From Anaerolineales bacterium (lineage in GTDB: Bacteria; Chloroflexota; Anaerolineae; Epilineales; JAANWY01), in NCBI GenBank assembly GCA_018263655.1, contig JAANWY010000334.1, forward strand, positions 1-32,674: DNA of 32,674 nt. The letters are read 5' to 3'. Under the pieces are notes generated by a model. The model did no database searches, was not told the origin of the DNA, and saw only the letters and a program-made list of their open reading frames with translations. A program made the translations under genes and the position numbers. Below are positions 548 to 25,097 of this stretch, piece after piece (the stretch's first letter is position 1; the number at the start of each line of letters is the position of its first letter).

Positions 548-1855
548 ATGGGAAGCAAACTGTTTGGGAAAAACGGCATTACGGTATTCAGGGCGGTTAT
601 CATCTCCGTAGTATTGGCCGTCGTGGTTATGGGATGTGCACCGTCCTCGCCGGCGCCATCACCTACGGAGGCGACGGGAGCCGGCCAAGAGGCCACAGAG
701 GCTCCTGAAGCAGCCGAGGAGGGTGTCACTCTAACCATCGAGCATTTTAGCATCATCGAAGGGACAACCTGGTCGGGCGCCCACGATCGCGCGGGAAAGC
801 GGCTCGCTGAGAAATACCCAAACGTAGAATACGTCTACCGCGAGGAAGTAGGTCCGGACCTCACCGTTCCCTACGCCGAAGAGTTGATCTCTAACGGGGC
901 CGACATTGTCGTCGGTAACGCAGAGTTCATGGGGCTGCCCCTGGAGGATATCGCTGATAAGTATCCGGACGTTTATTTCGCCTCGGTCATCGCCAGTGAT
1001 CTGAGCACGCAGCGGAACTTCATCAGGTTCTTCCCCAGGCAATATCAGGCGCTGTACCTGGAAGGCCTCATCGCTGGGGCGTTGACCGAGACCGGTAACA
1101 TCGGCATCGTCTCGGCATTCCCATCGGGCCAGGTCGCCCGGCGGCAGAACGGCTTTTACCTCGGGGTGCAGGATGCGGCCGAGATGCTTGGAAAAGACAT
1201 CACGGTGTATGTGAAGTACGCCGGCGACTGGTACCTGCCCTCGGAAGAGCGCGATATCGCGAAAACCTTGATCTCTCAGTACGACGTGGACGTCTTGACC
1301 CAGCAGACCGATTCCGGCTCCCCGCTGGACGTGGCCCAAGAAGAGGGCATCTGGTTCGTGGGGAAGGACATGGACATCGTAGGGTTCTACGGCTGGGCCG
1401 GCACGGATACGGTAGCCGTGTCCTTCGATACGCGTTGGGAAGTCCTCTACGATCAGATGACCCGGGATTGGATGGCCGGCAAGGACGATCCGGCAACGGT
1501 GCTGTACTTGGGCATGGACAGCAGTATGACGCTGGCTGACGGGACAGAGGTTGCCACTGTCGACATCATGAACGACGGCAAGGTGGGGGTTGACGCCATC
1601 AGTCCAGCGGCACGACCATCGGTGCCGGATGAGATCGTAGAACTCGTCGAGCAGAGGCGAGAGCAGATGATGAACGGCGAGTGGGATCCGTTCGCCGAGC
1701 GCGAGTTCGTGAGCAACGGAACCGGCTTTGCGCTGGAGAATTTGCCGATTCCGGATGCTGGGGCAGTGGTCAAGCCGGCCGGCGAAATGCCGTCGAGCGA
1801 GTGGCTGCTTTCACAGTTCAACTTCGACCTGGAAGGCATGCAGATATTGGAGTAA
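548..1855 (+). CDS. BMP family ABC transporter substrate-binding lipoprotein (nucleoside/nucleobase, PnrA/Med-like)
   Basis: Signal peptide with lipobox VVMG-C and a P/A/E-rich linker. BMP motifs WSGAHDRA, YLEGLIAGALTETGNIG, DVLTQQTDS. RBS AAGGAG. Lies upstream of a Nup-type ABC ATPase and permeases. Confidence 0.88.
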   Translation: MGSKLFGKNGITVFRAVIISVVLAVVVMGCAPSSPAPSPTEATGAGQEATEAPEAAEEGVTLTIEHFSIIEGTTWSGAHDRAGKRLAEKYPNVEYVYREEVGPDLTVPYAEELISNGADIVVGNAEFMGLPLEDIADKYPDVYFASVIASDLSTQRNFIRFFPRQYQALYLEGLIAGALTETGNIGIVSAFPSGQVARRQNGFYLGVQDAAEMLGKDITVYVKYAGDWYLPSEERDIAKTLISQYDVDVLTQQTDSGSPLDVAQEEGIWFVGKDMDIVGFYGWAGTDTVAVSFDTRWEVLYDQMTRDWMAGKDDPATVLYLGMDSSMTLADGTEVATVDIMNDGKVGVDAISPAARPSVPDEIVELVEQRREQMMNGEWDPFAEREFVSNGTGFALENLPIPDAGAVVKPAGEMPSSEWLLSQFNFDLEGMQILE

Positions 1856-1952
1856 GATATGGAGAATGGAAGATGGAAAATGGAGGGACGGAGAATGGAC
1901 TTCCCCTTTCCATCTTCCATTCCCCCCTTTCCATCTTCCCCCCTTCCATCTG
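1856..1952. repeat. Inverted array of heptamer tandem repeats (ATGGARA / TTCCATC), hairpin-forming
   Basis: atggaga atggaag atggaaa atggagg ... ttccatc ttccatt ... directly after the BMP stop codon. Confidence 0.75.
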
Positions 1953-2101
1953 CTTCTAGAAACCAGCCAAGTTTCTGGTCCCAACCTTCTTAAATATCCA
2001 ATGTCAAATATCCAGTTCCCCATATTTTGGTGGTCGAAATACCGACTTTAGCTCTGAGGATAGAACAGTTTTAACGGAGAGAATCCCAGGAGGAGAGATA
2101 G

Positions 2102-3676
2102 ATGCAAGCAGGGCTCCTGGACGGGGTACAATATGGAGACACGGTCTTAGAGGCGCGGGGAATCACCAAGCGATTCCCGGGCGTCGTCGCGAATGACCAC
2201 ATCGATTTCGAGATAAGGGCCGGCGAGATTCACGCCATCCTCGGGGAGAATGGCGCCGGGAAGACTACCCTGATGAATATCCTGTTCGGACTGTTGCAGC
2301 CCGACGAGGGCGAGCTCTATATCGGCGGTAAGAGAGTCGAGTTCAGGTCACCGCTGGATGCCATCGATCTGGGGATCGGGATGGTTCATCAAAACCGCAA
2401 ACTGGTGTCTGCTCACACGGTGATCGAAAACATCATCCTCGGGCGCCCGCGGGCTGGGACAGTCCTGAACCTGAAGCGGGCGGAGGAGGAAGTCAACGAA
2501 CTCTGCGAGAGATACGGGTTCAAGATAGACCTCCGGGCGAAAGTCTGGCAGCTTTCAGAGGGAGAAAAGCAAATCGCCGAGATCCTGAAGGCCCTCTATC
2601 GCGGCGCCAAGGTCCTCATCCTGGACGAGCCGACTTCCGCGCTGGCGCCTCCTCAAACGAAGAACCTCTTGGCATCCATCCAAGCCATGGCTAGCGACGA
2701 ACTCGCCATCGTCCCTTTCATCACCCACAAGTTACCCATCGTGCTGGAGATCAGCGACCGGGTGACGGTTTTGAGACGCGGGAAAGTCACCGCTCGCTTA
2801 GAGACGCAGGACGCAACGGAGGAGAGCCTGGCCAGGCAAATGGTGGGGCGCGAAGTCATCTTCAGGGTCGAGAGCACGAAGGTTGAGACGGGGAAACGAA
2901 TACTCCAAGTAGAAAACCTTTCCACTCGCAGCGACAAAGGGTTTCTGGCGTTGAAGGGTGTTTCGTTTTCCATTCGTGAAGGCGAAATCTTCGGCATAGC
3001 CGGCATCTCCGGCAATGGGCAACACGAGCTAGCCGAAGTGCTCGCCGGCCTCCGCAAGGCGGAGGAGGGGCAAGTGATTCTTGAAGGCCAAGACATCACT
3101 CATTCCTCCAGCTTAGAAAGATGGCGGATGGGTGTAGGCTACATCCCCTCCGAGCGCGTAGATGTGGGTTCGATCGGCGATTTCTCCCTCGTGGAAAATG
3201 TCGCGATGAACTTCTACTTCGATGACGATTTCTCCGGGCCGGGAATCGTGAATTACGGCGATATACGGCAGCTCACAGAAGAACTCATCTCCGAGTACGA
3301 TGTGGCCGCCCCGAGTCCAGACACGAAGGCTAAGAACCTCTCTGGCGGAAACCTCCAAAAAATCATCCTGGCGCGCGTGCTGGCACGCAAACCGCGGCTC
3401 GTGATCGCCAATCTGCCGACTCAGGGACTTGACGTCGGGGCGACGGAGTTTGTGCGGAACAAGCTCGTGGAGGCGAAGGAGGCAAAAGCCGGCGTTCTCC
3501 TCATCTCCGAGGATCTCGATGAGGTTTTGTCGTTGAGTGACCGGGTGGCACCGATTTATGAAGGCAAGTTCATGGGCATCATCCCGGGGGACGTGGCCAA
3601 GCTGGAGCAGGTGGGCGCGATGATGGCCGGCTTGCGACTGGAGGGAAATATAATAGAGGAGACAGGGGACACATGA
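2102..3676 (+). CDS. ABC transporter ATP-binding protein, double ABC domain (NupA/YufO-like)
   Basis: Walker A GENGAGKT, Walker B LILDEPT; second domain GISGNGQ, LSGGNLQK, PTQGLDVGA. RBS AGGAGG. Confidence 0.95.
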   Translation: MQAGLLDGVQYGDTVLEARGITKRFPGVVANDHIDFEIRAGEIHAILGENGAGKTTLMNILFGLLQPDEGELYIGGKRVEFRSPLDAIDLGIGMVHQNRKLVSAHTVIENIILGRPRAGTVLNLKRAEEEVNELCERYGFKIDLRAKVWQLSEGEKQIAEILKALYRGAKVLILDEPTSALAPPQTKNLLASIQAMASDELAIVPFITHKLPIVLEISDRVTVLRRGKVTARLETQDATEESLARQMVGREVIFRVESTKVETGKRILQVENLSTRSDKGFLALKGVSFSIREGEIFGIAGISGNGQHELAEVLAGLRKAEEGQVILEGQDITHSSSLERWRMGVGYIPSERVDVGSIGDFSLVENVAMNFYFDDDFSGPGIVNYGDIRQLTEELISEYDVAAPSPDTKAKNLSGGNLQKIILARVLARKPRLVIANLPTQGLDVGATEFVRNKLVEAKEAKAGVLLISEDLDEVLSLSDRVAPIYEGKFMGIIPGDVAKLEQVGAMMAGLRLEGNIIEETGDT

Positions 3677-4788
3677 GGATCGGTGGCTGTCAATTGAAAC
3701 TCGAGCAGCGGGTGACGCTAGCCGGCTGGGAGGCAGCGCTCATGTCGATCCTCGCCATCGTCTTCGCCCTCTTCCTCTTCGGCTTCGTCTTCATCCTGGA
3801 CGACGTCGACCCGCTGTCGGCTTATCAGGAGATCTTTTCCTTCGCGTTTGCAAATCCTTATGGCCTGCCGCTGACGATCAACAGGTTCATATTCCTGTTG
3901 CTGTGTACATTCGCATTCATCATCCCGTTTAAGGCTGGGCTCTGGAACATCGGAATGGCGGGGCAGCTTTACGCCGGCGCGTTGGCCGCATTCGGTGCCC
4001 TGTTTGCCTTTGGTGGAAAAGAGCTTCCGTCCCCGGATCTTTCTCCTGGAATCGTCATCCCACTTATGTTGATGGCAGCGGCCCTGGGCGGTGCAGGGGT
4101 TGGAGCCATTGCCGGGTTTCTGAAGGGGAAGTACAACATCAACGAGATTGTGGTGACCATGATGCTGAATTTCATCGCTTTCTGGCTGGTTGCCTACATG
4201 ATCAAAGAGGGAGGTCCCTTCATGAATCCTGGCGGGAGAGGTGAGAGCTTTGAGCTCCCCTCTTCTGTATACGCGCCCTTGGTCATGGACGTCCCCTTCA
4301 CCATTTTCCTCGTCCTCGGGATAGCCGTGTTGCTGTACTTCCTGTTCGCCAAATCCAAAATCGGATATCAGATCAAGGCCCACGGTCATAACCCGGCTGC
4401 GGCCCGATATGCCGGCATCAGTACATTCAAGATACCGCTCTGGGTCTTTGTCGTGGGAGGGGGGCTGGCCGGCCTGGCTGGATATCACTATTTCGCCGCG
4501 GTTCCCGGTGTCTACAAGATCGCGCGGAACTACGGGTTTTTCGGCGATCTAGCCTTCTATGGTATCATATGTGGGCTGATCTCTCTCGGAAACCCCCTAG
4601 CCGCGATTCCCGTAACGCTGCTCTTCGGGGGATTGTCTATCGGTGGCCGATTCGTCCAGGGCAAACTCAATATGGGTTTCGGTTTGGATTATGCTCTGCT
4701 CGGCGTTTTGATGATTACGCTCGTCGCTTTCCAGTTCTTTTACCGCTATAAGCTTGTCCTGAGCCCGTCGAAGGGATCGTATTGGTAG
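3673..4788 (+). CDS. ABC transporter permease (NupB/YufP-like)
   Basis: Multi-TM protein with GLWNIGMAGQ, INEIVVTMMLN, GHNPAAARYAGI. ATGA overlap with the ATPase. Confidence 0.92.
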   Translation: MRIGGCQLKLEQRVTLAGWEAALMSILAIVFALFLFGFVFILDDVDPLSAYQEIFSFAFANPYGLPLTINRFIFLLLCTFAFIIPFKAGLWNIGMAGQLYAGALAAFGALFAFGGKELPSPDLSPGIVIPLMLMAAALGGAGVGAIAGFLKGKYNINEIVVTMMLNFIAFWLVAYMIKEGGPFMNPGGRGESFELPSSVYAPLVMDVPFTIFLVLGIAVLLYFLFAKSKIGYQIKAHGHNPAAARYAGISTFKIPLWVFVVGGGLAGLAGYHYFAAVPGVYKIARNYGFFGDLAFYGIICGLISLGNPLAAIPVTLLFGGLSIGGRFVQGKLNMGFGLDYALLGVLMITLVAFQFFYRYKLVLSPSKGSYW

Positions 4789-4909
4789 GGTATGATCATC
4801 GTTTCGGCCACTAGCTCGGCTTGGATTGCCAAATCCAAGCCATAACCGCTGGATTTGGCAATCCAGCGGGAGCAGGCGGAAGCCAATGGCCGAAACGATG
4901 ATCAAGGCT
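4788..4909. mobile_element. MITE-B copy 1 (122 bp palindromic element)
   Basis: Inverted repeats tgatcatcgtttcggcca / tggccgaaacgatgatca. Exact 8-bp flanking duplication TATTGGTA (4780-4787, 4910-4917). Near-identical inverted copy at 15633-15755. Confidence 0.85.
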
Positions 4910-4951
4910 TATTGGTAAAGATAACAGGGAGAACGGAGGAGAAGCGATTAG

Positions 4952-5827
4952 ATGTGGGAGTTTATCGCTAGAAGCCTAGAGGCCTCGACGATTTTCACCG
5001 TTGCCGCTCTCGGCGAGCTCATCGACCAGCGCTCGGGCATTCTGAACGTTGGGATTGAGGGGGTGATGCTTTTTGGCGCCACCTTCGGTTTCATCGCCGC
5101 CCAATCTACGGATAGTTACTTGCTCGGCTTTTTGGTGGGGATTGCTATCGGCAGCCTGCTGGGCCTGCTCCACGGCTTCTTTTCCGTCACGCTGGGCGCC
5201 GATCAGGTGGTGGTCGGGATGGGCATCTGGATCTTCGGCTTCGGCCTCACGACCTACATCGGCAACCCGTACACCGGACCATTGGGGATGGAGAGGGTCC
5301 CGCCTATTTTCGGGCTTTCCCCCTTCTTTTACCTCGGAATCGTGCTGGCAGCCGTTTCGTGGTTCACGCTCTCCAAAACGAACCTGGGCCTGAGGATAAG
5401 ATCGGTGGGGGAGAACCCATCGGTCGCGGAAGTTTCGGGTATAAATGTCACGAGGACCCGCTATCTGTGTGTCACAATCGGTGGGATGTTGGGGGGGCTC
5501 GCGGGTGCAATTTACTCCCTGTTCTACAACCCGGTCTGGAACTACAATTTTCTCATGGGCTGGGGTTTCATCGCGCTGGCCCTCGTCTTTTTCTCCATGT
5601 GGAATCCTTGGGTCCTGCTGGGTGGCTCTTTGCTTTTCGGAACCTTGTGGCAACTATCGCTCAACCCACAACTCGTACTCCCCGGCCTCCTGTCCAGGTA
5701 CATCTGGCGGACGATTCCCTTTGCCGTAACCATCGGGGTACTGCTGATCATCTCGACAGCGTGGTTTCGGCGCCGATGGGGGGCAGCAAAACCTGAAGCG
5801 CTCGGAGAACCCTACGTAAAAGAGTAA
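4952..5827 (+). CDS. ABC transporter permease (NupC/YufQ-like)
   Basis: AALGELIDQRSGILNVGIEG, GENPSVAEVSGINV, GWGFIALALV, C-terminal PEALGEPY. Confidence 0.93.
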   Translation: MWEFIARSLEASTIFTVAALGELIDQRSGILNVGIEGVMLFGATFGFIAAQSTDSYLLGFLVGIAIGSLLGLLHGFFSVTLGADQVVVGMGIWIFGFGLTTYIGNPYTGPLGMERVPPIFGLSPFFYLGIVLAAVSWFTLSKTNLGLRIRSVGENPSVAEVSGINVTRTRYLCVTIGGMLGGLAGAIYSLFYNPVWNYNFLMGWGFIALALVFFSMWNPWVLLGGSLLFGTLWQLSLNPQLVLPGLLSRYIWRTIPFAVTIGVLLIISTAWFRRRWGAAKPEALGEPYVKE

Positions 5828-5849
5828 GTAGCCGCCAGCCCAAATGCGG

Positions 5850-7491: not shown

Positions 7492-7509
7492 TGAGCTACC
7501 AAGAAGAGA

Positions 7510-7808: not shown

Positions 7809-7837
7809 TTGACAGGCCGGCCTTCACAGCCTATACT
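7809..7837 (+). promoter_or_regulatory. Sigma70-type promoter, probably giving a leaderless rpn mRNA
   Basis: TTGACA (7809-7814), 17 bp spacer, TATACT (7832-7837). ATG at 7845 follows 7 nt later with no RBS. Confidence 0.72.
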
Positions 7838-7844
7838 TGTTGGC

Positions 7845-10735: not shown

Positions 10736-10762
10736 ATTGAGAGTTGCCGAGCAGGGATAGCG

Positions 10763-11464: not shown

Positions 11465-11484
11465 TTGATGAGGAGACACAATCT

Positions 11485-14492: not shown

Positions 14493-14494
14493 CG

Positions 14495-14935: not shown

Positions 14936-14936
14936 C

Positions 14937-17397: not shown

Positions 17398-17512
17398 GGC
17401 CCTCTCCCCCCTAGCCCCCCTCTCCCAACCCTGGGCGAGGGGGGAACGAAGCTCCCCTCCCCTAAATTTTGGGGAGGGGGTGTCTACTACGCAGACCTGG
17501 GGGGTGGGGGCC
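17398..17512. repeat. CCCCTCTCCC...GGGAGAGGGG-type REP-like palindromes
   Basis: cccctctcccaaccctgggcgagggggg and cccctcccctaaattttggggagggg hairpins. A related unit lies at 23952-23997. Confidence 0.7.
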
Positions 17513-17531
17513 AGCCCACAGGAGGCCCAAT

Positions 17532-18044
17532 TTGGAGAATCTGTTTACAGTTACCGTTACAGTCAACGGCCGGCAATACGAACGAGCCATTGAGCCCCGA
17601 TTGTTGCTGAGCGATTTCCTGCGCCACGAACTCGGGCTCACGGGTACGCACGTTGGCTGCGAACACGGCGTATGTGGCGCCTGCACCATCCTCTTCGACG
17701 GCCAGCCAGTCCGCTCCTGTATCATGCTCGCCGTGCAAGCCAACGGCCACGAGATCCAAACCGTCGAGAATCTGGCGCTGGACGCAAAGCCCGAAAACCT
17801 GCACCCCCTGCAAGTCGGATTCTGGGAGGCTCACGGTTTGCAGTGCGGCTTCTGCACCCCGGGCTTCTTGATGACTCTCCTACCGTTTCTGGAGGAACAT
17901 CCCGATCCCTCGGAGGAGGAAATTCGTGAAGCGATCTCGGGGAACCTCTGTCGGTGCACTGGATATCAGAACATCGTCGACGCGGTGAAGCTGGCGGCCG
18001 GCAAGATGCAAGAGACCCAAGCAGGACCGGGAGGTGCAGCATGA
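17532..18044 (+). CDS. [2Fe-2S] small subunit (CoxS-like)
   Basis: GCEHGVCGACT, QCGFCTPG, GNLCRCTGY. GGAGG RBS (17521-17525) before in-frame TTG 17532. Confidence 0.93.
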   Translation: MENLFTVTVTVNGRQYERAIEPRLLLSDFLRHELGLTGTHVGCEHGVCGACTILFDGQPVRSCIMLAVQANGHEIQTVENLALDAKPENLHPLQVGFWEAHGLQCGFCTPGFLMTLLPFLEEHPDPSEEEIREAISGNLCRCTGYQNIVDAVKLAAGKMQETQAGPGGAA

Positions 18045-20389
18045 CGACGCGCTACCTCGGCAAACCCATCAAGCGCAACGAGGATCCGCAACTACTGACC
18101 GGACAGGCCCAATTTGTGGATGATGTCGATCTGCCGGAGATGCTCCACGTGGCCTTCAAACGCAGCGACTACGCTCATGCCAGGATCGTGAGTGTGGACG
18201 TGGAAGCGGCGAAGGCCATGCCGGGCGTGATTGCGGTCTACGTAGCCGAGGATTTGGGCGATTACTGGCAGCCATCGCCGTTGCTGGTGCCTCCACCGCC
18301 GGCCCAGCACGTCGTCTTCAACGAACGCACAGCCGGCCAACTCGCCAAGGACAAAGTCCGCCTCGTCGGCGAGCCCATCGCCATGGTCATAGCGAGGAGC
18401 CGCTATCTCGCCGAAGACGCTGCTGAGACGATCTTCGTCCAATACGAGCCACTCGATCCGGTGATGGATTTGGAAGCTGCTCTTGCTGAAGATTCGGCGC
18501 TGGTGCACGAAGGTGTCGGCTCGAATGTGGCGGCGCACGTGATCCAGGAGAAAGGCAGCTACGAAACGGCGCGCGCCGAGGCCGATGTCGTCGTTTCGCG
18601 GCGTATGCTCTACGACCGAGGCGCCTCCGCGCCGATGGAGACGCGGGGCGTCGTGGCTCACTACGACGCGCTGTCCCAGGAGCTCGTCGTGTGGGATTCT
18701 ACGCAAGCCCCCATCCCCATTCGCAATGGTCTGGCGAGCATGTTGGGCCTCTCCGAGCGGCAGGTGCGTGTGATCGCGCCCTTCGTCGGCGGTGGCTTCG
18801 GGCCGAAGATCATGATGTTCTACCCCGAGGAAACACTGATCCCGTGGGCCGCTATACGGTTGGAGCGCCCGGTCAAGTGGATCGAGGATCGGCGGGAGCA
18901 CTTCTATGCCACGACGCAGGAGCGCTCCCAGCTCCACGATTCCGAAATCGCGCTTACTCGGGATGGAAAGATTCTCGGTATGAAAGATGTTTTTCTACAC
19001 GATACCGGCGCCTACATCCCCTACGGTCTAACTGTACCTCTCAATACCCAGTGTACACTCCTCGGCCCGTACGTCGTGCCGCACTACTACTCCGAATTCC
19101 GGGCGATATTCACCAACAAAACGATCGTCACGCCCTACCGCGGCGCCGGCCGGCAGCAGGGGGTGTTCGTCATGGAACGCTTGCTCGATCTGGCGGCGAA
19201 GGAGATGGAGATGGATCCACTGGAACTGCGCCGGCAGAACTTCATCCCGCCGGACCAGTTCCCCTGGAACAACGAAATCATCTATCAGGACTTCTCCGAG
19301 CTGACTTACGACAGCGGCGACTACGAGCCCATCCTGGACAAAGCGATGGACATGATCGGCTGGGAGGACTTTCGCGAGAACGAACAGCCACGCCTCCGCG
19401 CCGAGGGCAAGCACGTCGGCATTGGGCTGGTGATGTACGTCGAAGGCACCGGCATCGGGCCGTACGAGGGTGCGCGCGTCCACGTCGAATCGTCGGGCAA
19501 AGTGACGGTGGTGACGGGCGTCGGGACGCAGGGCCAGGGACACTACACCAGCTTCGCGCAGGTCGTCGCCGAGGCGCTGGGCGTCCCGCCTGAAGACATC
19601 GCTGTGACGACGGGCGATACGGGTCAATTCGATTGGGGGACGGGCACGTTCGCCAGTCGCGGGGCGGTGGTGGCCGGCTCCGCCATCCACGCGGCGGCAG
19701 AGATGGTGCGCGAGAAAGCCATCCAACATGCTGCCGAACATCTAGAGGCCCGCGAAGAAGACATCGAGCTGGCGGACGGGTTTGCACAGGTGCGGGGATC
19801 GCCCGACGCCCGCGTGAGTCTGGCGGAGTTGGCAGCCAATGCCAACCCCTTGCGCGGCGCTGTCCGTCCGGGAACTGAGCCCGGCCTGGAGGCGACGGCC
19901 TATTTCGGTCCCGAGATGGGGGCCACGGCTAACGGCGCCCACGCCATCATCCTGGAAGTCGATCCGGAGACGTTCGATGTCAAGGTTCACCGCTATGTGG
20001 TCGTTCACGACTGCGGCACACTCATCAACCCTCTGATTGTCGCCGGCCAGGTGCACGGCGGTGTGGCCCAAGGTCTGGGTAATGCCTTCTACGAGCAACT
20101 CGTCTACGACGATGCATCCGGGCAGTTGCTGAATGCCTCCTTCATGGACTACCTGCTTCCGACATCGGAGACGGTGCCGCGCGTGGAGGTAGGACACGAG
20201 GAGACGCCTTCGCCGCTCAATCCGCTGGGCGTCAAGGGGGCGGGCGAGGCCGGCGCCATCCCCGTCGGGCCTGCCTTCGCCCAGGCGATTGAGGATGCGC
20301 TGGCTGACACCGATATCGAGATTCTCGAAATCCCGCTTAGCCCGAACCGCCTGTTCGAAATTGTGCGGCGCGCAACGACGGAGACCTGA
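18041..20389 (+). CDS. Xanthine dehydrogenase family molybdopterin-binding large subunit (CoxL-like, not form I CODH)
   Basis: RNEDPQLLTG, VGGGFGPK, PYRGAGR, QGQGH, TFASR, GQVHGGVAQG, KGAGEAG. ATGA overlap with the small subunit; RBS GGAGG. Confidence 0.93.
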   Translation: MTTRYLGKPIKRNEDPQLLTGQAQFVDDVDLPEMLHVAFKRSDYAHARIVSVDVEAAKAMPGVIAVYVAEDLGDYWQPSPLLVPPPPAQHVVFNERTAGQLAKDKVRLVGEPIAMVIARSRYLAEDAAETIFVQYEPLDPVMDLEAALAEDSALVHEGVGSNVAAHVIQEKGSYETARAEADVVVSRRMLYDRGASAPMETRGVVAHYDALSQELVVWDSTQAPIPIRNGLASMLGLSERQVRVIAPFVGGGFGPKIMMFYPEETLIPWAAIRLERPVKWIEDRREHFYATTQERSQLHDSEIALTRDGKILGMKDVFLHDTGAYIPYGLTVPLNTQCTLLGPYVVPHYYSEFRAIFTNKTIVTPYRGAGRQQGVFVMERLLDLAAKEMEMDPLELRRQNFIPPDQFPWNNEIIYQDFSELTYDSGDYEPILDKAMDMIGWEDFRENEQPRLRAEGKHVGIGLVMYVEGTGIGPYEGARVHVESSGKVTVVTGVGTQGQGHYTSFAQVVAEALGVPPEDIAVTTGDTGQFDWGTGTFASRGAVVAGSAIHAAAEMVREKAIQHAAEHLEAREEDIELADGFAQVRGSPDARVSLAELAANANPLRGAVRPGTEPGLEATAYFGPEMGATANGAHAIILEVDPETFDVKVHRYVVVHDCGTLINPLIVAGQVHGGVAQGLGNAFYEQLVYDDASGQLLNASFMDYLLPTSETVPRVEVGHEETPSPLNPLGVKGAGEAGAIPVGPAFAQAIEDALADTDIEILEIPLSPNRLFEIVRRATTET

Positions 20390-20449: not shown

Positions 20450-21592
20450 ATGCGCTCCGTCAGCGTTGTTGGGGTTGGGCAACTGCCTGTCAGGAAGCAG
20501 GCGACGGCGAGTTTGCGTGAGTTGGGGGTGCGAGCCGCGCAGCTCGCACTGGAGGATGCCGGCGTCGATCGAGTGGCTGTGCTGTTTGCCGGCAACATGC
20601 TCTCCGACGAACTGCAGGGCCAGAAACACGTTGCGACCCTGATTGCCAGCGAAGCCGGCTTGCACGGCATCGAAGCGCTGCAGGTACGGGCGGCGACAGC
20701 AACAGGGGCGGCGGCGCTACGGATGGCGTACCTGGCCGTGGCGAGCGGCGACGTGGAACTGGCGCTGGCCGTCGGATTTGAGAAAATGAGTACGGCGCCC
20801 CCTACCAGCGCCCTGGCGAAAGCGATGGATGCCGAACTCGAAGTGCCGACGGGTGCGACGCTGATTTCGCAGAACGCTGACCTGATGCGAGCCTACCTGG
20901 AGCGCTACGATGTCGCCTACGAGAGCTTCGTGAACTTCGCCATCAACGCCCACCGCAACGCCACCATGAATCCCTACGCTCGCTTTCAGAGCGAAATCTC
21001 GGCGAAAGAGGTGTTGGAATCGCGCATCGTCAACGCCCCAATCCGCCTGTTCGACTGCTCCCCAATCTGCGATGGGGCAGCGGCCGTCGTTTTAGCTCCT
21101 ACCGATGCGGCCACTGCATTCACCGATTACCCCGTTCGGGTGCTCACCGGCACTGTCGCGACCGACTGGCTCCGCGTCGAGGACCGGCCCGAGCCGCTGG
21201 CGGTGGAGGCAGCGCGGCTCTCGGCGCAGAAAGCCTACGCGCAAACCGGCCTCACACCAGACGATGTTGACTTCTTTGAAGTGCACGATGCGTTCTCCAT
21301 CATGGCCTGTCTCCTGCTGGAGGCGGCCGGCTTCGCGGAGCAGGGACACGGCTGGCGATTGGCGGCCGAGGGCGAAATCTTCCGTGAGGGCCGGCTTCCC
21401 ATCGCCACGCTGGGTGGGCTAAAAGCCCGCGGCCATCCCATCGGTGCGACCGCCCTGTACCAGACCTGCGAGATTGTGCAGCAATTGACAGGCCAGGCCG
21501 GCACCAACCAACTGGCGCACGCCGAGATCGGGATGCTCCAGAGCGTCGGTGGGGCTGCGGCCACCGTCTTAACCCATCTCTTTGCCGCGTAA
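20450..21592 (+). CDS. Thiolase-fold protein (SCP2/archaeal type) lacking the nucleophilic Cys
   Basis: DCSPICDGAAA, EVHDAF, GGLKARGHPIGAT present. The usual xAACASG reads RAATATG. Confidence 0.85.
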   Translation: MRSVSVVGVGQLPVRKQATASLRELGVRAAQLALEDAGVDRVAVLFAGNMLSDELQGQKHVATLIASEAGLHGIEALQVRAATATGAAALRMAYLAVASGDVELALAVGFEKMSTAPPTSALAKAMDAELEVPTGATLISQNADLMRAYLERYDVAYESFVNFAINAHRNATMNPYARFQSEISAKEVLESRIVNAPIRLFDCSPICDGAAAVVLAPTDAATAFTDYPVRVLTGTVATDWLRVEDRPEPLAVEAARLSAQKAYAQTGLTPDDVDFFEVHDAFSIMACLLLEAAGFAEQGHGWRLAAEGEIFREGRLPIATLGGLKARGHPIGATALYQTCEIVQQLTGQAGTNQLAHAEIGMLQSVGGAAATVLTHLFAA

Positions 21593-21806: not shown

Positions 21807-23120
21807 ATGCTGATCGTTCCAGCCCCGCTGGCTAAACTCGCCGCTGCGCTGCACAGTGGCGAGTTGGAACTGACGAAACATATCGATGAGGTCTGTGATC
21901 GCGTTGAGAGCGTCGACCGGCGTGTGCAAGCGCTGCTGCCTGAGCCGGTGCGCCGCGTGCGCTTGCTGAACGAGGCGCGGCGCCTACAGGAACGCTTCCC
22001 CGATCCCACCGAGCGCCCCCCACTCTACGGTATTCTCGTCGGCGTGAAAGACATCATCCACATCGATGGGTTTCTCACGCGCGCCGGCTCGAACTTGCCG
22101 CCCACAGCGTTGGAAGGGCCTGAGGCGACTGTTGTCACGACGCTCCGGGAAGCCGGCGCGTTGATCCTTGACAAGACTGTCACGACGGAGTTCGCCTGGT
22201 TTGATCCTGGCCCGACCCGTAACCCCCACAACGTACAGCACACGCCAGGTGGGTCAAGCAGTGGTTCGGCAGCAGCAGTGGCGGCCGGGCTTTGCCCCCT
22301 GGCGCTTGGCACGCAGACCATTGGATCGGTGATCCGGCCGGCGGCCTTCTGCGGTATTGTCGGCTTCAAACCCAGCTTCGGGCGCATCCCGACGGATGGC
22401 GTGATCATGTTCTCAGAGTCAGCCGATCATGTTGGGCTGTTCACGCAGGATGTGGCCGGCATGCGGTTAGCGGCCGCCGTCGTCTGCGATGGCTGGAAAG
22501 TGCCAACACGAGATCGGAAGCTTGGGGGCCGGCCGGTGCTGGGTGCTCCGGAAGGTCCGTACCTCGAACAAGCCTCGGAGGAGGGGCTGGCTGCCTTTCG
22601 GGACCAGTTGCAGCGATTGGAAGCCGCCGGCTACACCGTGCGCCGTGTGCCGGCTTTCGACGACATCGAGACCATCAACCAGCAGCATCGGCGCATGATC
22701 GCCGCCGAAGTCGTGCAGGTACACGCCGATTGGTTCGCACGGTACGAGTCACTCTACCGACCACGCACGGCCGCCGTGATCCGCGAAGGGCAGCAGGTTA
22801 GTGCTGATGAGTTGGCGGAGGCCCGGGCTGGCCGTGAGGTGCTGCGATCTGATCTGGAGCAGCGGATGCAGAAGGCGGGTATTGTCATCTGGGTCAGCCC
22901 CGCTGCGCTTGGTCCCGCACCCCGCGGGATCGACGCGACTGGCGATCCCGCCATGAACCTGCCGTGGACCTATGCCGGCTTGCCGACGGTTACGGTACCG
23001 GCCGGCGGCGCTGAGAATGGTCTCCCCCTCGGTCTGCAGTGTACGACGTCTTTCATGACCGATGAGCGGCTCCTGGCCTGGGCGGAGTCAATCGCTGAAA
23101 CCCTCACTGATCGGAGGTAA
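21807..23120 (+). CDS. Amidase signature family amidase, malonamidase E2-like
   Basis: VKDII (catalytic Lys), TPGGSSSGSAAAV, LGTQTIGSVIRPAAFCG (Ser nucleophile). The GTQTxGSVIRPA form resembles MAE2 rather than GatA (GSDTGGSIRQP). Confidence 0.9.
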   Translation: MLIVPAPLAKLAAALHSGELELTKHIDEVCDRVESVDRRVQALLPEPVRRVRLLNEARRLQERFPDPTERPPLYGILVGVKDIIHIDGFLTRAGSNLPPTALEGPEATVVTTLREAGALILDKTVTTEFAWFDPGPTRNPHNVQHTPGGSSSGSAAAVAAGLCPLALGTQTIGSVIRPAAFCGIVGFKPSFGRIPTDGVIMFSESADHVGLFTQDVAGMRLAAAVVCDGWKVPTRDRKLGGRPVLGAPEGPYLEQASEEGLAAFRDQLQRLEAAGYTVRRVPAFDDIETINQQHRRMIAAEVVQVHADWFARYESLYRPRTAAVIREGQQVSADELAEARAGREVLRSDLEQRMQKAGIVIWVSPAALGPAPRGIDATGDPAMNLPWTYAGLPTVTVPAGGAENGLPLGLQCTTSFMTDERLLAWAESIAETLTDRR

Positions 23121-23525: not shown

Positions 23526-23545
23526 CCAGCACAAGGCTGACTGTC

Positions 23546-24478
23546 GTGCATCGTCTGACGTCTGGCGGCAGCCTTGCGGCTGTCACGATTGCTAGTCCCA
23601 GCGCGACGTGGCTCCAAGCGGAGCCGCGCCGTTTGTTTGTGCATTCGGCCTTCTCACGGGTTGTCAATTTGCGTAGTGCGGATGGTCAGTTTTTGACACT
23701 CTTGACAAGGGACAACGACGCTGGCCCGTTTGCGATGCGCTTGGCTGGCCGGCAGTTGCCATCGGTGCCGGTCGGCGTGCCGGCCAGTGCTGAGGGAGGC
23801 ACGATCACCCTGGGGGATTGGCAAATCGACTGGCACGGGGCAGCGGGTTGGAATCCGACGCTCGGGTCGCTGGAACAACCGTCGGATGTCTCGCTGTCGT
23901 CGCTGCTGAATTCTTTGCGTAAGGTTGATTCTATCTTTGCGGAGGCGGTGCTGCCCCTCTCCCCGAAGACTGGGAGAGGGGCAAGGGGGGAGAGGGCTCA
24001 CGCCTCTCTGTTCCACGACTACCTCGCAGTTCAGACCATGCATCTGCTGACGATGTTGTGTGCTGGCCTCCAGGGCAACGAACGCGCGCTGACCGAAGCC
24101 GTGCGTGGACTGTTAGGCTTTGGCCCTGGGTTGACGCCGGCCGGCGACGATTGCCTGTTGGGCGTGTTGGCGGCGCGGCGCATGTCGGGTGAGCCGGCGA
24201 GGATACTCAAAACACTCGTCGGTGACTTAGCTGGGCGCACAACGGCGCTCAGCGCTGCGTTTTTGCGGGAAGCGTGTAATGGGCGTTTTGCCGGCCAGTG
24301 GCATCACCTTCGCGATGCGTTGGCGGCTAAGCAGGCGGCACTGATCGAGGCATCACTCCGCCGAATCCTGGCATACGGCGCTTCCTCGGGTGCAGATGCG
24401 CTGGGCGGATGGGTTATTGGGATGTCGCTGAGGAATCCGTCTACGGAGGCTAGTGCTCCGCGTTACCTCGCCGGCTAA
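23546..24478 (+). CDS. ylbF: DUF2877 protein (YlbF/YahE, AllH-like)
   Basis: VHSAFSRVVNL, LLGFGPGLTPAGDD, TTALS, GASSGAD. Start uncertain. Confidence 0.85.
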   Translation: MHRLTSGGSLAAVTIASPSATWLQAEPRRLFVHSAFSRVVNLRSADGQFLTLLTRDNDAGPFAMRLAGRQLPSVPVGVPASAEGGTITLGDWQIDWHGAAGWNPTLGSLEQPSDVSLSSLLNSLRKVDSIFAEAVLPLSPKTGRGARGERAHASLFHDYLAVQTMHLLTMLCAGLQGNERALTEAVRGLLGFGPGLTPAGDDCLLGVLAARRMSGEPARILKTLVGDLAGRTTALSAAFLREACNGRFAGQWHHLRDALAAKQAALIEASLRRILAYGASSGADALGGWVIGMSLRNPSTEASAPRYLAG

Positions 24479-25097
24479 GGAGGTAGAGAATCACCAGGAC
24501 GACCAGTGCGCCAATCAACACAGGCCGCCGCTCCGGTGGAACGAAGTCTTCTGCTACGTCCTTCGCAACGGTTACAGCCACTTCGGTCTGACTCGGTGTG
24601 GCAAGTTCAGGCTTCACTTCCGGTTTCACTTCAGCTTCAGTGGCCTCGGGCGGCTGCCGGCGCGCCTGAATCTGTGCGTCAATGCTTTCCAGTCCCTGAC
24701 GCGTCAGAGACTTAGCTGTGCTGTCCAACAGGCGTTGTCCCACGCTCGCGACGCGGCCTCCGACCTGGACATTGCCGACGTAGTGCATGGTCGTGGAGCC
24801 ATCCTGCTCTTCCAGCGAGGCGTCACCCTCGCCATTGACGAATCCGGGAGCACCTTGACCACTGACCTCCATGTGGCAACTCTCCGGCGGATTCAGGTCT
24901 GACAGGCTGACGCTGCCTTTGAAGCGGCCCTGCACTGGCCCGATTCGGATGTTCAGTGTAGCTTTGTACTCGTTATCATCAACCTGTTCGAGTTCTTCGC
25001 AGCCCGGAAGGGCTTTACTGAGCACTTCCGGATCGAGCATCGCTTCCCACACTTCATCGCGTGGGGCAGCGAAAGTGTAGTTTCCTTCAAGTTTCAT
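24450..25097 (-). CDS. coxG: CoxG (SRPBCC) accessory protein with C-terminal membrane anchor
   Basis: VWEAMLDPEVLSKALPGC, IGPVQGRF, VGGRVASVGQRL, C-terminal hydrophobic helix followed by RR. Confidence 0.9.
   Translation of the reverse strand: MKLEGNYTFAAPRDEVWEAMLDPEVLSKALPGCEELEQVDDNEYKATLNIRIGPVQGRFKGSVSLSDLNPPESCHMEVSGQGAPGFVNGEGDASLEEQDGSTTMHYVGNVQVGGRVASVGQRLLDSTAKSLTRQGLESIDAQIQARRQPPEATEAEVKPEVKPELATPSQTEVAVTVAKDVAEDFVPPERRPVLIGALVVLVILYLLSRRGNAEH

What the first reader, a model, noticed from the sequence alone, without database searches (positions are those of the whole stretch)
548..25097. Candidate undescribed oxidative pyrimidine (or related cyclic ureide) catabolic pathway that conserves carbamoyl-phosphate
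Seen: one cluster combines a nucleoside-type ABC importer, a CoxMSL/G Mo hydroxylase, a double cyclase amidohydrolase, FdrA + DUF1116 + DUF2877, a malonamidase-E2-like amidase and a MatB-like CoA ligase. Known: Rhodococcus oxidises uracil to barbiturate with a Mo hydroxylase and then uses barbiturase and ureidomalonase; E. coli FdrA/YlbE/YlbF (AllFGH) transfer the carbamoyl group of oxalurate, giving oxamate; MAE2 hydrolyses malonamate; MatB makes malonyl-CoA. Inference: these parts fit uracil -> barbiturate (CoxMSL-like) -> ureidomalonate (cyclase in place of barbiturase) -> malonamate + carbamoyl-P (AllFGH-like, the one-carbon-longer analogue of oxalurate -> oxamate) -> malonate + NH3 (amidase) -> malonyl-CoA (MatB). 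No barbiturase, ureidomalonase or allantoinase is in the window. I do not know this combination as a described pathway.
Basis: partly seen in the sequence, partly recalled or inferred. Interest (0 to 1): 0.88.

Follow-up and report, generated by a model that had tools for sequence, protein, structure and literature searches.

The report
Conserved nucleobase-breakdown gene cluster in Anaerolineae
This stretch carries a gene cluster, shared by many uncultured Anaerolineae bacteria, that probably imports a nucleobase-like ring compound, oxidises and opens it, and saves part of it as energy-rich carbamoyl phosphate; no paper found describes this route, and its exact substrate is still unproven.

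Summary
It missed a thiolase, a DinB protein and two mobile-element genes.

**Conserved core.** FdrA, AllG (DUF1116), the double cyclase, CoxMSL with CoxG, and a transporter recur together. AllG sits beside the double cyclase in 68 of 68 loci with enough flank. The double cyclase occurs in 69 of 401 sampled genomes of the class, and 65 of those 69 also have AllG.

**Not conserved as orthologues.** Near the double cyclase the window's MatB-like ligase was found in 0 of 80 loci, its MAE2-like amidase in 2 of 80 and its AllH in 1 of 80. Relatives carry a family III CoA-transferase and a nitrilase-type C-N hydrolase instead. So amide hydrolysis and CoA activation are conserved by function only.

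**Substrate.**
- Towards malonamate, malonate and a pyrimidine: the best solved-structure matches (malonamidase E2, R. palustris MatB), a uracil-permease-like alternative transporter, and no oxalyl-CoA decarboxylase in 5 genomes.
- Against: a related haloarchaeal cluster carries a xanthine-permease-type transporter, and most relatives have a second Mo hydroxylase plus a single cyclase. A purine or another ureide is not excluded.

The literature searches found no description of this cluster. Verdict: a real, probably new pathway variant with an unproven substrate.

The parts
548..1855 (+). BMP/PnrA-family substrate-binding protein of the ABC importer
   Evidence: Pfam PF02608, 76 bits. Best solved relatives are AtzT 6pi5 (92 bits) and 3s99. 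Orthologues at 55% identity or more in 15 of 28 well-flanked loci.
2102..3676 (+). ABC transporter ATPase with two ABC domains
   Evidence: Pfam PF00005, two stretches. Orthologues in 17 of 28 well-flanked loci.
3673..5827 (+). Two ABC permease genes (3673-4788 and 4952-5827)
   Evidence: Pfam PF02653 for both.
5977..7491 (+). MatB-like AMP-forming acyl-CoA ligase. It occupies the slot that a family III CoA-transferase holds in related clusters.
   Evidence: NCBIfam malonyl-CoA synthase 505 bits, cut-off 558. PDB 4fuq MatB 378 bits against oxalate-CoA ligase 249 bits. No orthologue near the cluster in 0 of 80 genome loci, nor among 80 metagenome loci. In L064, L065, L068 and L071 the order is permease > CoA-transferase > FdrA.
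7809..8927 (+). YhgA-like (PD-D/ExK) transposase, an insertion inside the cluster
   Evidence: Pfam PF04754, 212 bits. Absent from all 80 related loci.
9026..10735 (+). FdrA/AllF-like subunit with succinyl-CoA-synthetase-alpha-like domains
   Evidence: NCBIfam FdrA 559 bits, cut-off 433. Pfam Ligase_CoA and CoA_binding. Orthologue in 40 of 47 loci with at least 4.5 kb upstream.
11461..12726 (+). AllG/DUF1116 subunit
   Evidence: Pfam PF06545, 318 bits. 49-52% identical to E. coli DUF1116 proteins. Next to the double cyclase in 68 of 68 loci.
12819..14492 (+). Double cyclase-family amidohydrolase (557 aa). The N-terminal half has lost the metal motif and the C-terminal half keeps it. Proposed ring-opening lactam hydrolase.
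   Evidence: Two PF04199 stretches. TAGTHLV in the N-half against HLATHMD in the C-half. AlphaFold2 model with pLDDT 78 and pTM 0.84; best folds are Mn isatin hydrolase 4j0n (E 1e-11) and kynurenine formamidases. 432 GTDB species genomes encode a relative.
14489..15455 (+). ORF of 148 aa with no family match (14489-14935) and a DinB/MST-like protein (14937-15455); roles unknown
   Evidence: Pfam: none for the first, PF12867 for the second. DinB orthologue in 13 of 54 loci; the 148-aa ORF in 2 of 80.
15884..16774 (+). CoxM-type FAD subunit of the molybdenum hydroxylase
   Evidence: Pfam PF00941 and PF03450. Orthologue in 43 of 54 loci.
16720..17280 (+). Uma2-family nuclease gene lodged between coxM and coxS
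   Evidence: Pfam PF05685. 0 of 80 related loci. Several paralogues elsewhere in the genome.
17469..18044 (+). CoxS-type 2Fe-2S subunit
   Evidence: Pfam PF01799 and PF00111.
17954..20389 (+). CoxL-type molybdopterin subunit (likely start 18038). It is neither a CO dehydrogenase nor a canonical xanthine dehydrogenase.
   Evidence: Pfam MoCoBD_1/2. Motif PYRGAGR in place of the Cys-bearing form I loop (motif meaning recalled). Best PDB matches are 8uem, Qor 1t3q and Kdh 7dqx. Orthologue in 36 of 46 loci.
20450..21592 (+). SCP-x/archaeal-type thiolase-domain protein; role unknown
   Evidence: Pfam Thiolase_C_1 and Thiolase_N; NCBIfam PRK06064 390 bits, cut-off 420. Thiolase plus OB-fold partner also sits beside related clusters in G001 and on a Natrinema plasmid.
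21807..23120 (+). Malonamidase-E2-like amidase-signature amidase. It stands in for the nitrilase-type C-N hydrolase of related clusters.
   Evidence: PDB 1ock MAE2 178 bits, E 2e-51; the next unrelated hit scores 140 bits. Shared GSVIRPAA stretch. Orthologues next to FdrA/AllG in L053 and L081 only.
23546..24478 (+). AllH/DUF2877 subunit
   Evidence: Pfam PF11392, 83 bits. One copy in each of 5 of 5 related genomes, usually elsewhere, beside a second CoxMSL set and a single cyclase.
24450..25097 (-). CoxG/SRPBCC protein
   Evidence: Pfam PF06240, 97.5 bits. Orthologue after CoxL in 32 of 44 loci.

Best explanation
The window holds one copy, rearranged by mobile elements, of a catabolic cluster conserved in Anaerolineae.

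**Proposed route**
1. A BMP-type ABC importer takes up a nucleobase-like heterocycle.
2. The CoxMSL-type molybdenum hydroxylase, with CoxG, adds an oxo group using water.
3. The double cyclase, a fused pseudo-dimer with one intact metal site, opens the resulting cyclic imide to an N-acylurea.
4. FdrA, AllG and AllH split that N-acylurea with phosphate into carbamoyl phosphate and an amide. A carbamate kinase encoded elsewhere can turn the carbamoyl phosphate into ATP.
5. An amide hydrolase frees the acid.
6. A CoA-activating enzyme makes its thioester.

In this window the last two enzymes are malonamidase-E2-like and MatB-like. The most likely concrete route is therefore uracil or thymine -> (5-methyl)barbiturate -> ureido(methyl)malonate -> (methyl)malonamate + carbamoyl-P -> (methyl)malonate -> (methyl)malonyl-CoA.

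**Shown:** gene content, conservation of the core, and non-orthologous replacement of steps 5 and 6.

**Inferred:** every substrate and the order of steps.
For: **Gene content**
- Families confirmed.

**Linkage of the core**
- AllG beside the double cyclase in 68 of 68 loci, FdrA in 40 of 47, type 1 CoxL in 36 of 46, CoxG in 32 of 44, and any transporter in 26 of 28.
- Double cyclase in 69 of 401 genomes of the class and 46 of 216 genera.
- By my reading, 65 of those 69 also have AllG. Three of the four exceptions hold only a partial cyclase match.
- Genomes without the double cyclase still pair FdrA/AllG with a single cyclase, a C-N hydrolase, an NCS2 permease and Mo hydroxylases (12 regions that I chose).

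**Replacement of steps 5 and 6**
- The canonical order is CoA-transferase III > FdrA > C-N hydrolase > AllG > cyclase.
- G000 has no orthologue of either enzyme: best 37% and 31% identity, in a genome 78.6% complete.
- Instead it carries the ligase in the CoA-transferase slot, and an amidase.

**Malonate signal**
- MAE2 is the best solved match for the amidase.
- MatB scores 378 bits against 249 for oxalate-CoA ligase.
- Carboxyltransferase genes lie near 4 of 28 well-flanked loci.
- Oxalyl-CoA decarboxylase is over cut-off in 0 of 5 genomes.

**Pyrimidine hints**
- The alternative NCS2 carrier scores 206 bits to uracil permease against 127 to xanthine permease.
- Cytosine deaminase and CodB flank the homologous cyclase/Mo-hydroxylase cluster in Halostagnicola.
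- G000 has a separate ygeW/ygeX-like cluster with carbamate kinase that could serve purines (abstract of 10.1101/2025.05.19.654654).

**Cyclase fold**
- The fold matches lactam-opening isatin hydrolase.

**AllFGH chemistry**
- Oxalurate + Pi -> oxamate + carbamoyl-P (PMC11326118, abstract and passages).
Against: - No enzyme was assayed, and no substrate-specific residue was tested.
- The ligase has no orthologue beside any related cluster: 0 of 80 genome loci. The best 80 metagenome relatives are at most 40% identical, and none lies next to FdrA, AllG or a cyclase.
- The amidase recurs in only 2 of 80 loci. Both it and the ligase lie next to mobile-element genes or rearranged DNA.
- In the haloarchaeal cluster the NCS2 carrier passes the xanthine-permease model (454 bits, cut-off 414). 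Cytosine genes appear in 1 of the 5 haloarchaeal records read.
- The binding protein's closest solved relative retains guanine (PMC6834077 abstract).
- The canonical CoA-transferase also matches formyl-CoA:oxalate transferases at 281 bits.
- Proteobacterial plasmids join DUF1116 and Mo hydroxylases with genes annotated 'oxalurate catabolism protein HpxZ'.
- 4 of 5 genomes already have dihydropyrimidinase-type genes over cut-off.
- The second CoxMSL set, the single cyclase, NmrA-like, DinB, thiolase and the GNAT-like f19 protein are unexplained.
- No malonyl-CoA decarboxylase (PF05292) was found in 0 of 5 genomes, but the control genomes were silent too.
Confidence: 0.42

Rival explanations
1. 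The scheme is the same, but the substrate is a purine (xanthine or urate). The one or two Mo hydroxylases make urate, the cyclases open its rings hydrolytically, and the ureido or acylurea groups go to phosphate. The three-carbon C4-C5-C6 core ends as (amino)malonamate and then (amino)malonate.
For: - Most relatives have two Mo hydroxylase sets and two cyclases.
- The NCS2 carrier in the haloarchaeal cluster is xanthine-permease type, over cut-off.
- The binding protein is closest to the guanine-retaining AtzT.
- The MAE2-like and MatB-like enzymes would also fit a substituted malonate.
Against: - By the recalled motif, neither large subunit has the GGGFGGKE-type loop of xanthine dehydrogenases. 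The window's subunit reads GGGFGPKI and the second type GGGFGSKA.
- G000 seems to lack the second set.
- G000 has a separate ygeW/ygeX-like cluster with carbamate kinase.
- The Chloroflexi NCS2 carrier is closer to uracil permease.
- No deaminase sits in the cluster.
Confidence: 0.24
2. The cluster handles a five-membered or other ureide (for example a hydantoin or parabanate type, or a creatinine-derived ring). This is oxidised and opened to oxalurate, the known AllFGH substrate, and then processed as oxamate -> oxalate -> oxalyl-CoA.
For: - The only proven substrate of AllFGH is oxalurate (PMC11326118).
- DUF1116 with a Mo hydroxylase, HpxZ and an amidase occurs on Caballeronia and Azospirillum plasmids.
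- The CoA-transferase matches formyl-CoA/oxalate transferases at 281 bits.
- A ThDP enzyme lies next to the CoA-transferase in Halorussus.
Against: - Oxalyl-CoA decarboxylase is over cut-off in 0 of 5 genomes; the best score is 169 bits against a cut-off of 739.
- The window's ligase and amidase are closer to the malonate enzymes.
- The best CoA-transferase models are succinate-glutarate and mesaconate types, at 416 and 338 bits.
Confidence: 0.14
3. Here FdrA and AllG are not a transcarbamylase. They are an ADP-forming acyl-CoA synthetase-like enzyme that works with the CoA-transferase or ligase to gain ATP from a CoA thioester. No carbamoyl phosphate is involved.
For: - FdrA carries CoA_binding and Ligase_CoA domains.
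- A CoA-transferase is its upstream neighbour in 18 of 39 loci.
- AllH is usually not adjacent.
Against: - The E. coli homologues (AllG 49-52% identical) are the oxamic transcarbamylase (PMC11326118).
- AllH is present as a single copy in 5 of 5 genomes.
- Carbamate kinase is over cut-off in 4 of 5 genomes.
Confidence: 0.08
4. The accessory genes of this window (ligase, thiolase, amidase, AllH) landed next to the core by rearrangement and serve unrelated functions.
For: - Two mobile-element genes lie inside the cluster.
- CoxG is inverted relative to the canonical order.
- The ligase, thiolase and amidase occur in 0, 3 and 2 of 80 loci.
Against: - Each replaces a function found in the canonical cluster.
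- G000 lacks orthologues of the replaced genes.
- AllH is needed for the trio.
- Amidase orthologues sit beside FdrA in L053 and L081.
- A thiolase accompanies related clusters in G001, L030, L077, L113 and on a Natrinema plasmid.
Confidence: 0.08

Closest known systems
E. coli oxamate branch of anaerobic allantoin degradation: AllFGH (FdrA, YlbE, YlbF) oxamic transcarbamylase with AllK carbamate kinase (PMC11326118, PMC9843812)
   Same: The same three protein families are present. AllG is 49-52% identical to E. coli DUF1116 proteins. Carbamate kinase is present in the genome. The proposed chemistry is the same: N-acylurea + Pi -> amide + carbamoyl-P.
   Different: There are no allantoin genes. 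The trio is split, with AllH about 11 kb from AllG here and usually on another locus in relatives. Carbamate kinase is not in the cluster. The trio is embedded with a Mo hydroxylase, a cyclase hydrolase, an amide hydrolase and a CoA-activating enzyme. The substrate is probably not oxalurate.
Oxidative pyrimidine pathway of Rhodococcus (uracil/thymine dehydrogenase, barbiturase, ureidomalonase). Recalled; only mentions were seen in the listings.
   Same: The proposed first two intermediates (barbiturate, ureidomalonate) and malonate as the end product are the same.
   Different: No barbiturase/AtzD-family gene was found in 0 of 5 genomes, although the control genomes were silent too. A cyclase-family hydrolase would take its place. 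The ureido group would be conserved as carbamoyl-P rather than released as urea. Malonamate would be a new intermediate.
Rhizobial malonamidase E2 and MatB malonyl-CoA synthetase
   Same: These are the best solved-structure matches of the window's amidase and ligase. The Ser-x-x-Arg stretch GSVIRPAA is shared with MAE2.
   Different: Both score below NCBIfam cut-offs. Identity to MatB is moderate. There are no matA or matC genes. Both enzymes are unique or rare among related clusters.
allFGHK beside biuret/triuret hydrolase and bmpA-nupABC in comammox Nitrospira and ammonia-oxidising archaea (PMC12625717, passages), and a similar E. coli plasmid set
   Same: The trio is joined to a BMP-type ABC importer or a cytosine-type permease and to small-ureide amidohydrolases.
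   Different: Those sets have isochorismatase-type hydrolases and a carbamate kinase. They have no Mo hydroxylase, no cyclase and no CoA enzymes.
Haloarchaeal plasmid cluster, undescribed as far as my searches went
   Same: It has a single cyclase (50-52% identical to the Chloroflexi single cyclase, 41% to the C-half of the double cyclase). It also has an XDH-family MSL set (large subunit 34% identical to the window's CoxL), CoxG, a family III CoA-transferase (about 40%), NCS2 carriers, and in one record a thiolase with an OB-fold protein.
   Different: It has no FdrA, AllG or AllH. Instead it carries a hydantoinase-like amidohydrolase and a CocE/NonD hydrolase, with urease genes nearby in one record.
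Isatin hydrolase and kynurenine formamidase (cyclase family PF04199)
   Same: The fold matches (Foldseek E 1e-11 to 4j0n), and the C-terminal half keeps the H-x-[GA]-T-H-x-D metal motif.
   Different: The protein is a tandem fusion with a degenerate N-terminal half. Sequence identity to solved members is 15-20%. The full-length family forms a single 50% identity cluster.

Membership tests
AllFGH-type oxamic transcarbamylase | Three subunits: FdrA-like, DUF1116 (PF06545) and DUF2877 (PF11392) | tested here: met
   FdrA is over the NCBIfam cut-off, and both Pfam families are over theirs.
AllFGH-type oxamic transcarbamylase | Adjacent genes in one operon together with carbamate kinase (AllK) | tested here: not met
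   AllH lies about 11 kb from AllG. Carbamate kinase is on another contig, C397. In 5 of 5 relatives AllH lies outside the FdrA-AllG-cyclase-CoxMSL gene run: close to it on the same contig in G002 and G004, elsewhere in G001, G003 and G005.
AllFGH-type oxamic transcarbamylase | Phosphorolysis of oxalurate to oxamate and carbamoyl phosphate | not testable with these tools
   This needs an enzyme assay.
Rhodococcus-type oxidative pyrimidine pathway | Barbiturase of the AtzD/TrzD ring-opening amidase family | tested here: not met
   TIGR02714 matched 0 of 5 genomes, and no such gene is in the window. The control genomes were silent as well.
Rhodococcus-type oxidative pyrimidine pathway | Uracil/thymine dehydrogenase activity of the Mo hydroxylase | not testable with these tools
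Form I aerobic CO dehydrogenase (CoxL) | Active-site loop with the Cu-binding cysteine (AYxCSFR; recalled) | tested here: not met
   The window has PYRGAGR. The NCBIfam CODH group 5 model scores 949.8 bits against a cut-off of 950.
Canonical xanthine dehydrogenase | Glu after the GGGFGGK loop (bovine Glu802; recalled) | tested here: not met
   The window's large subunit reads GGGFGPKI and the second type GGGFGSKA. XDH models score below their cut-offs.
Malonamidase E2 | Amidase-signature fold with the nucleophile Ser followed by Arg at +3, which binds the substrate carboxylate (residue roles recalled) | tested here: met
   GSVIRPAA aligns with MAE2 residues 154-161. MAE2 is the best PDB match at 178 bits. 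Activity was not tested.
MatB malonyl-CoA synthetase | Scores over the curated family cut-off and prefers malonate | tested here: inconclusive
   505 bits against a cut-off of 558. The best PDB match is R. palustris MatB at 378 bits. Specificity residues were not examined.
Cyclase family (PF04199) metal hydrolases | H-x-G-T-H-x-D metal-binding motif and the isatin hydrolase/KynB fold | tested here: met
   The C-half motif is intact and the N-half is degenerate. Fold matches.

The most novel reading that the evidence does not exclude
Many Anaerolineae, and with other downstream enzymes some haloarchaea, degrade pyrimidines by a water-dependent, oxygen-independent oxidative route. A cyclase-family enzyme acts as a new kind of barbiturase. 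An AllFGH-type enzyme takes ureidomalonate as a new substrate, so the ureido group yields ATP through carbamoyl phosphate, and malonamate is a new intermediate.
Probability: 0.35. Interest if true: 0.85.

Novelty: new variant of a known kind. Interest (0 to 1): 0.7.

Why it matters
**Wider role for the enzyme family.** AllFGH was assigned a function only in 2024, and only for oxalurate. Here its genes are tied to a Mo hydroxylase and an unusual fused cyclase hydrolase in about one in six sampled genomes of a large, mostly uncultured class common in sludge, sediments and soils. If the scheme holds, it adds:
- a fourth way to break down pyrimidines or a related nucleobase;
- a new enzyme type for opening barbiturate-like rings;
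- a second substrate class for the carbamoyl-phosphate-forming trio.

**Energy without oxygen.** It would also explain how fermenting Chloroflexi gain ATP and nitrogen from nucleobases without oxygen.

**Testability.** The non-orthologous replacements (ligase for CoA-transferase, amidase-signature enzyme for nitrilase-type hydrolase) give clear, testable predictions about the intermediates.

Tried and rejected
- **Form I CO dehydrogenase:** rejected, because the active-site loop is PYRGAGR.
- **Canonical xanthine dehydrogenase for either large subunit:** rejected on a recalled motif.
- **Remnant of the C-N hydrolase between fdrA and allG (10735-11461):** no tblastn trace even at E 10. That gap is not conserved with the closest relative L002, so the 133-aa ORF there is probably not a conserved gene.
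- **Riboswitch that would name the ligand:** no Rfam match at gathering score in the window and five related loci. At E 0.5 only hairpin-like microRNA look-alikes appeared.
- **Recurrence of the ligase:** the best 80 metagenome relatives are at most 40% identical, and none sits by FdrA, AllG or a cyclase.
- **Second CoxMSL set, single cyclase, CoA-transferase, C-N hydrolase and NmrA orthologues in G000:** not found; the genome is 78.6% complete.
- **Malonyl-CoA decarboxylase and barbiturase family searches:** no hits, but the control genomes were silent too, so these are weak negatives.
- **f19 protein:** no Pfam, NCBIfam or PDB sequence match. The protein-atlas look-alikes are partly labelled GNAT acetyltransferases. 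This is a lead only.
- **Literature:** searches on FdrA/DUF1116/DUF2877/oxamic transcarbamylase, on barbiturase/ureidomalonase/oxidative pyrimidine, on barbituric acid + uracil + molybdenum, on malonamate/malonamidase/thymine dehydrogenase and on cyclase + XDH family + CoA-transferase + uracil found no description of this cluster. Subscription journals are not covered.
- **Supplements:** closed. The supplemental results of PMC12625717 on allFGHK contexts and Tables S2-S3 of PMC11326118 may bear on distribution.

Full report
**What is in the window.** The window is the whole contig C262 of a metagenome-assembled genome of 3.83 Mb, 78.6% complete. Homologue names and locus titles place it in Anaerolineales/Chloroflexota.

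From 548 to 25097, Pfam and NCBIfam give the following genes:
- a BMP/PnrA-like binding protein, an ABC ATPase and two permeases;
- an AMP-forming ligase whose best model is malonyl-CoA synthase (505 bits, cut-off 558);
- a YhgA-like transposase;
- FdrA (559 bits, cut-off 433);
- a 133-aa ORF with no family match;
- AllG/DUF1116;
- a protein with two cyclase domains;
- a 148-aa ORF with no family match;
- a DinB/MST-like protein;
- CoxM, a Uma2 nuclease, CoxS and CoxL;
- an SCP-x-type thiolase;
- an amidase-signature amidase;
- AllH/DUF2877;
- CoxG, on the minus strand.

It missed the thiolase, DinB and the two mobile-element genes. Downstream lie surE and a PEP-CTERM/exosortase locus.

**Is the grouping real?** The double cyclase has relatives in 432 GTDB species genomes, and the best 80 loci are 77-90% identical. 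A tblastn of all window proteins against these loci, ORF clustering and Pfam scans of the recurrent unknowns give this canonical order:

family III CoA-transferase > FdrA > nitrilase-superfamily C-N hydrolase > AllG > double cyclase > NmrA-like protein > CoxM > CoxS > CoxL > CoxG > BMP-ABC importer.

In some loci an NCS2 permease replaces the ABC importer.

Counting only loci with enough flank:

| Gene | Loci with it |
|---|---|
| AllG | 68 of 68 |
| FdrA | 40 of 47 |
| C-N hydrolase | 27 of 47 |
| CoA-transferase | 18 of 39 |
| CoxM | 43 of 54 |
| CoxL of the window's type | 36 of 46 |
| CoxL of a second type | 14 of 46 |
| CoxG | 32 of 44 |
| NmrA-like | 25 of 54 |
| DinB | 13 of 54 |
| Any transporter | 26 of 28 |

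- In an even sample of the class, the double cyclase is in 69 of 401 genomes, 48 of 273 good-quality genomes and 46 of 216 genera.
- AllG is in 148 of 401 genomes (this count includes one unpublished genome, G394).
- By my reading of the two lists, 65 of the 69 cyclase carriers also have AllG. Three of the other four hold only a partial cyclase match.
- I chose twelve AllG regions from genomes without the double cyclase. They still show FdrA/AllG beside a single cyclase, or AllG or the C-N hydrolase beside the NCS2 permease and the second hydroxylase type.
- The core is therefore a functional unit that is shuffled but kept together.

**What is special about this copy.**
- The window's ligase, amidase, thiolase and AllH are found near the double cyclase in only 0, 2, 3 and 1 of 80 loci.
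- The best metagenome relatives of the ligase are at most 40% identical and unlinked to the system.
- The ligase nevertheless sits exactly where the CoA-transferase sits in L064, L065, L068 and L071 (permease > CoA-transferase > FdrA).
- The window has an amidase but no C-N hydrolase.
- The rest of G000 has no orthologue of either canonical enzyme: best 37% and 31% identity.
- The two other loci with an orthologous amidase, L053 and L081, also lack the C-N hydrolase between FdrA and AllG.
- I read this as non-orthologous replacement. The pathway needs an amide hydrolase and a CoA-activating enzyme, whichever family supplies them.
- AllH is a single-copy gene in 5 of 5 related genomes. There it usually lies beside a second CoxMSL set (large subunit about 30% identical to the first) and a single-domain cyclase. 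In G001 a thiolase, a DUF35-like protein and the f19 protein lie in the same region.
- I did not find that second module in G000.

**The individual proteins.**
- *CoxL.* It has PYRGAGR where form I CO dehydrogenases carry the copper-binding cysteine. After GGGFG it reads PKI, not the Gly-Lys-Glu of xanthine dehydrogenases (the meaning of both motifs is recalled). Its best solved relatives are a mycobacterial CO dehydrogenase, quinoline 2-oxidoreductase and 6-hydroxypseudooxynicotine dehydrogenase. An N-heterocycle hydroxylase is the sensible reading.
- *Double cyclase.* It is really 557 aa. Its N-terminal half reads TAGTHLV where the C-terminal half keeps HLATHMD, so only one metal site survives. 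An AlphaFold2 model (pLDDT 78, pTM 0.84) matches Mn-dependent isatin hydrolase, a lactam-opening enzyme, and kynurenine formamidases (Foldseek E about 1e-11). Full-length members form a single 50% identity cluster among 1.84 billion representatives. There are only two distant two-domain relatives; the rest are fragments or single-domain proteins.
- *Amidase.* Its best solved match is malonamidase E2 (178 bits, E 2e-51, against 140 bits for the next family). It shares the GSVIRPAA stretch, in which MAE2 has the nucleophile Ser155 and Arg158 (residue roles recalled).
- *Ligase.* It matches R. palustris MatB at 378 bits, S. coelicolor MatB at 256 and oxalate-CoA ligase at 249.
- *Binding protein.* It is closest to AtzT (92 bits), which retained guanine and binds 2-hydroxyatrazine (abstract of PMC6834077). 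'Nucleobase or heterocycle importer' therefore fits better than 'nucleoside importer'.

**Context elsewhere.**

Haloarchaeal plasmids carry a related set:
- a single cyclase, 50-52% identical to the Chloroflexi single cyclase;
- an XDH-family MSL set, with a large subunit 34% identical to the window's CoxL;
- CoxG;
- a family III CoA-transferase, about 40% identical;
- NCS2 carriers;
- a hydantoinase-like amidohydrolase and a CocE/NonD hydrolase.

In Natrinema zhouii the set also has a thiolase with an OB-fold protein, and urease genes lie nearby. In Halostagnicola larsenii a cytosine deaminase and CodB, both over NCBIfam cut-offs, flank the cyclase. However, the NCS2 carrier there passes the xanthine-permease model (454 bits, cut-off 414).

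- Proteobacterial plasmids join DUF1116 to a Mo hydroxylase, an SRPBCC protein, an amidase and HpxZ.
- E. coli plasmids join the trio to a cysteine hydrolase, a carbamate kinase and a cytosine-type permease. This is like the biuret-linked allFGHK sets of nitrifiers (PMC12625717, passages).
- The common thread is that DUF1116 systems sit downstream of ring-opened ureides.

**Genome-level checks on G000 to G004.**

| Gene sought | Genomes over cut-off | Note |
|---|---|---|
| Carbamate kinase | 4 of 5 | Includes G000 contig C397 |
| Oxalyl-CoA decarboxylase | 0 of 5 | Best 169 bits, cut-off 739 |
| Dihydropyrimidinase-type | 4 of 5 | |
| AtzD/barbiturase family | 0 of 5 | Control genomes silent |
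| Malonyl-CoA decarboxylase | 0 of 5 | Control genomes silent |

- On C397 the carbamate kinase follows an OTCase-family gene and precedes a PLP enzyme.
- That layout recalls the ygeW/ygeX part of the reductive urate pathway (abstract of 10.1101/2025.05.19.654654).

**How it most likely works.** The chemistry of AllFGH is oxalurate + Pi -> oxamate + carbamoyl-P (PMC11326118). It needs an N-acylurea. A Mo hydroxylase followed by a lactam hydrolase is a direct way to make one from a cyclic ureide. The downstream amide hydrolase and CoA enzyme then fit the amide product.

In this window both downstream enzymes point to malonamate and malonate, the oxalate route lacks its decarboxylase, and one alternative carrier is uracil-permease-like. 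I therefore rank the routes as follows:

| Reading | Odds |
|---|---|
| Uracil/thymine -> barbiturate -> ureidomalonate -> malonamate + carbamoyl-P -> malonate -> malonyl-CoA | about 0.4 |
| Purine route ending in a substituted malonate | about 0.24 |
| Oxalurate-forming ureide | about 0.14 |
| FdrA/AllG as a CoA-thioester enzyme | about 0.08 |
| Accessory genes unrelated to the core | about 0.08 |

All substrates are inferred. The second hydroxylase and cyclase, the thiolase/DUF35/f19 group, NmrA-like and DinB remain unexplained.

**Comparison and novelty.**
- By subunit families the trio belongs with AllFGH. It does not share AllFGH's operon layout or, probably, its substrate.
- The proposed route works like the Rhodococcus oxidative pyrimidine pathway, but no barbiturase-family gene was found and urea release is replaced by phosphorolysis.
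- Seven literature searches found no description. In particular, only 7 papers mention DUF1116 or DUF2877, and none is about this cluster.
- I rate it a new variant of a known kind, with interest 0.7.

Noticed in passing
window 7809-8927 and 16720-17280: A YhgA-like transposase lies between the ligase and fdrA. A Uma2-family nuclease gene lies between coxM and coxS and overlaps the coxM end by 55 bases. Neither is in any of the 80 related loci. Uma2 has several paralogues in the genome.
   Followed up: partly
window 25963-32197: surE is followed by a PEP-CTERM protein (26884-28392), a 689-aa ORF with no family match, an exosortase EpsH (30561-31385) and a DUF3485/EpsI-like gene. This is a separate exosortase locus.
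   Followed up: no
window 1859-1927, 25737-25826, 30429-30495: Stem-loops score weakly as microRNA precursors in Rfam at E 0.001-0.5. They are probably terminator or attenuator hairpins. The first lies right after the binding-protein gene.
   Followed up: no
L087 (G001:C1:332200-352100), L089, L090, L091: A second module occurs in relatives: AllH beside a second CoxMSL set (large subunit about 30% identical to the window's) and a single-domain cyclase about 290 aa long. In L087 (G001) f19, a thiolase and a DUF35-like gene lie in the same region.
   Followed up: partly
G000:C397 (L107) 4244-7568: An OTCase-family carbamoyltransferase, a carbamate kinase and a PLP-dependent enzyme lie in a row. 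This resembles the ygeW/yqeA/ygeX part of the reductive urate cluster of E. coli.
   Followed up: partly
L095 (Halostagnicola larsenii plasmid NZ_CP007056.1) and L093, L094, L096-L098: Haloarchaeal plasmids carry a conserved cyclase + XDH-family + CoxG + CoA-transferase + NCS2 + hydantoinase-like + CocE-hydrolase cluster. My searches found no description of it.
   Followed up: partly
L108 (E. coli plasmid NZ_CP134087.1) 5645-12855: A cysteine hydrolase, DUF2877, FdrA, DUF1116, a carbamate kinase and a cytosine-type permease form one block on conjugative E. coli plasmids. The DUF1116 search hit 96 Escherichia plasmid records.
   Followed up: no
L040 and L059: Contigs with the Anaerolineae-type double cyclase (84% and 79% identical) are filed under a Zixibacteriota MAG and a Methanosarcinales MAG. 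These are probably binning errors.
   Followed up: no
L045, L078, L115, L119: A 611-aa carboxyltransferase (PF01039) sits near some clusters, followed in L045 by a small ORF. It may decarboxylate a (methyl)malonyl-CoA product.
   Followed up: no
table: The double cyclase stays 69-88% identical across many families of the class, although its distribution is patchy (46 of 216 genera). This suggests strong constraint, lateral spread, or both.
   Followed up: no
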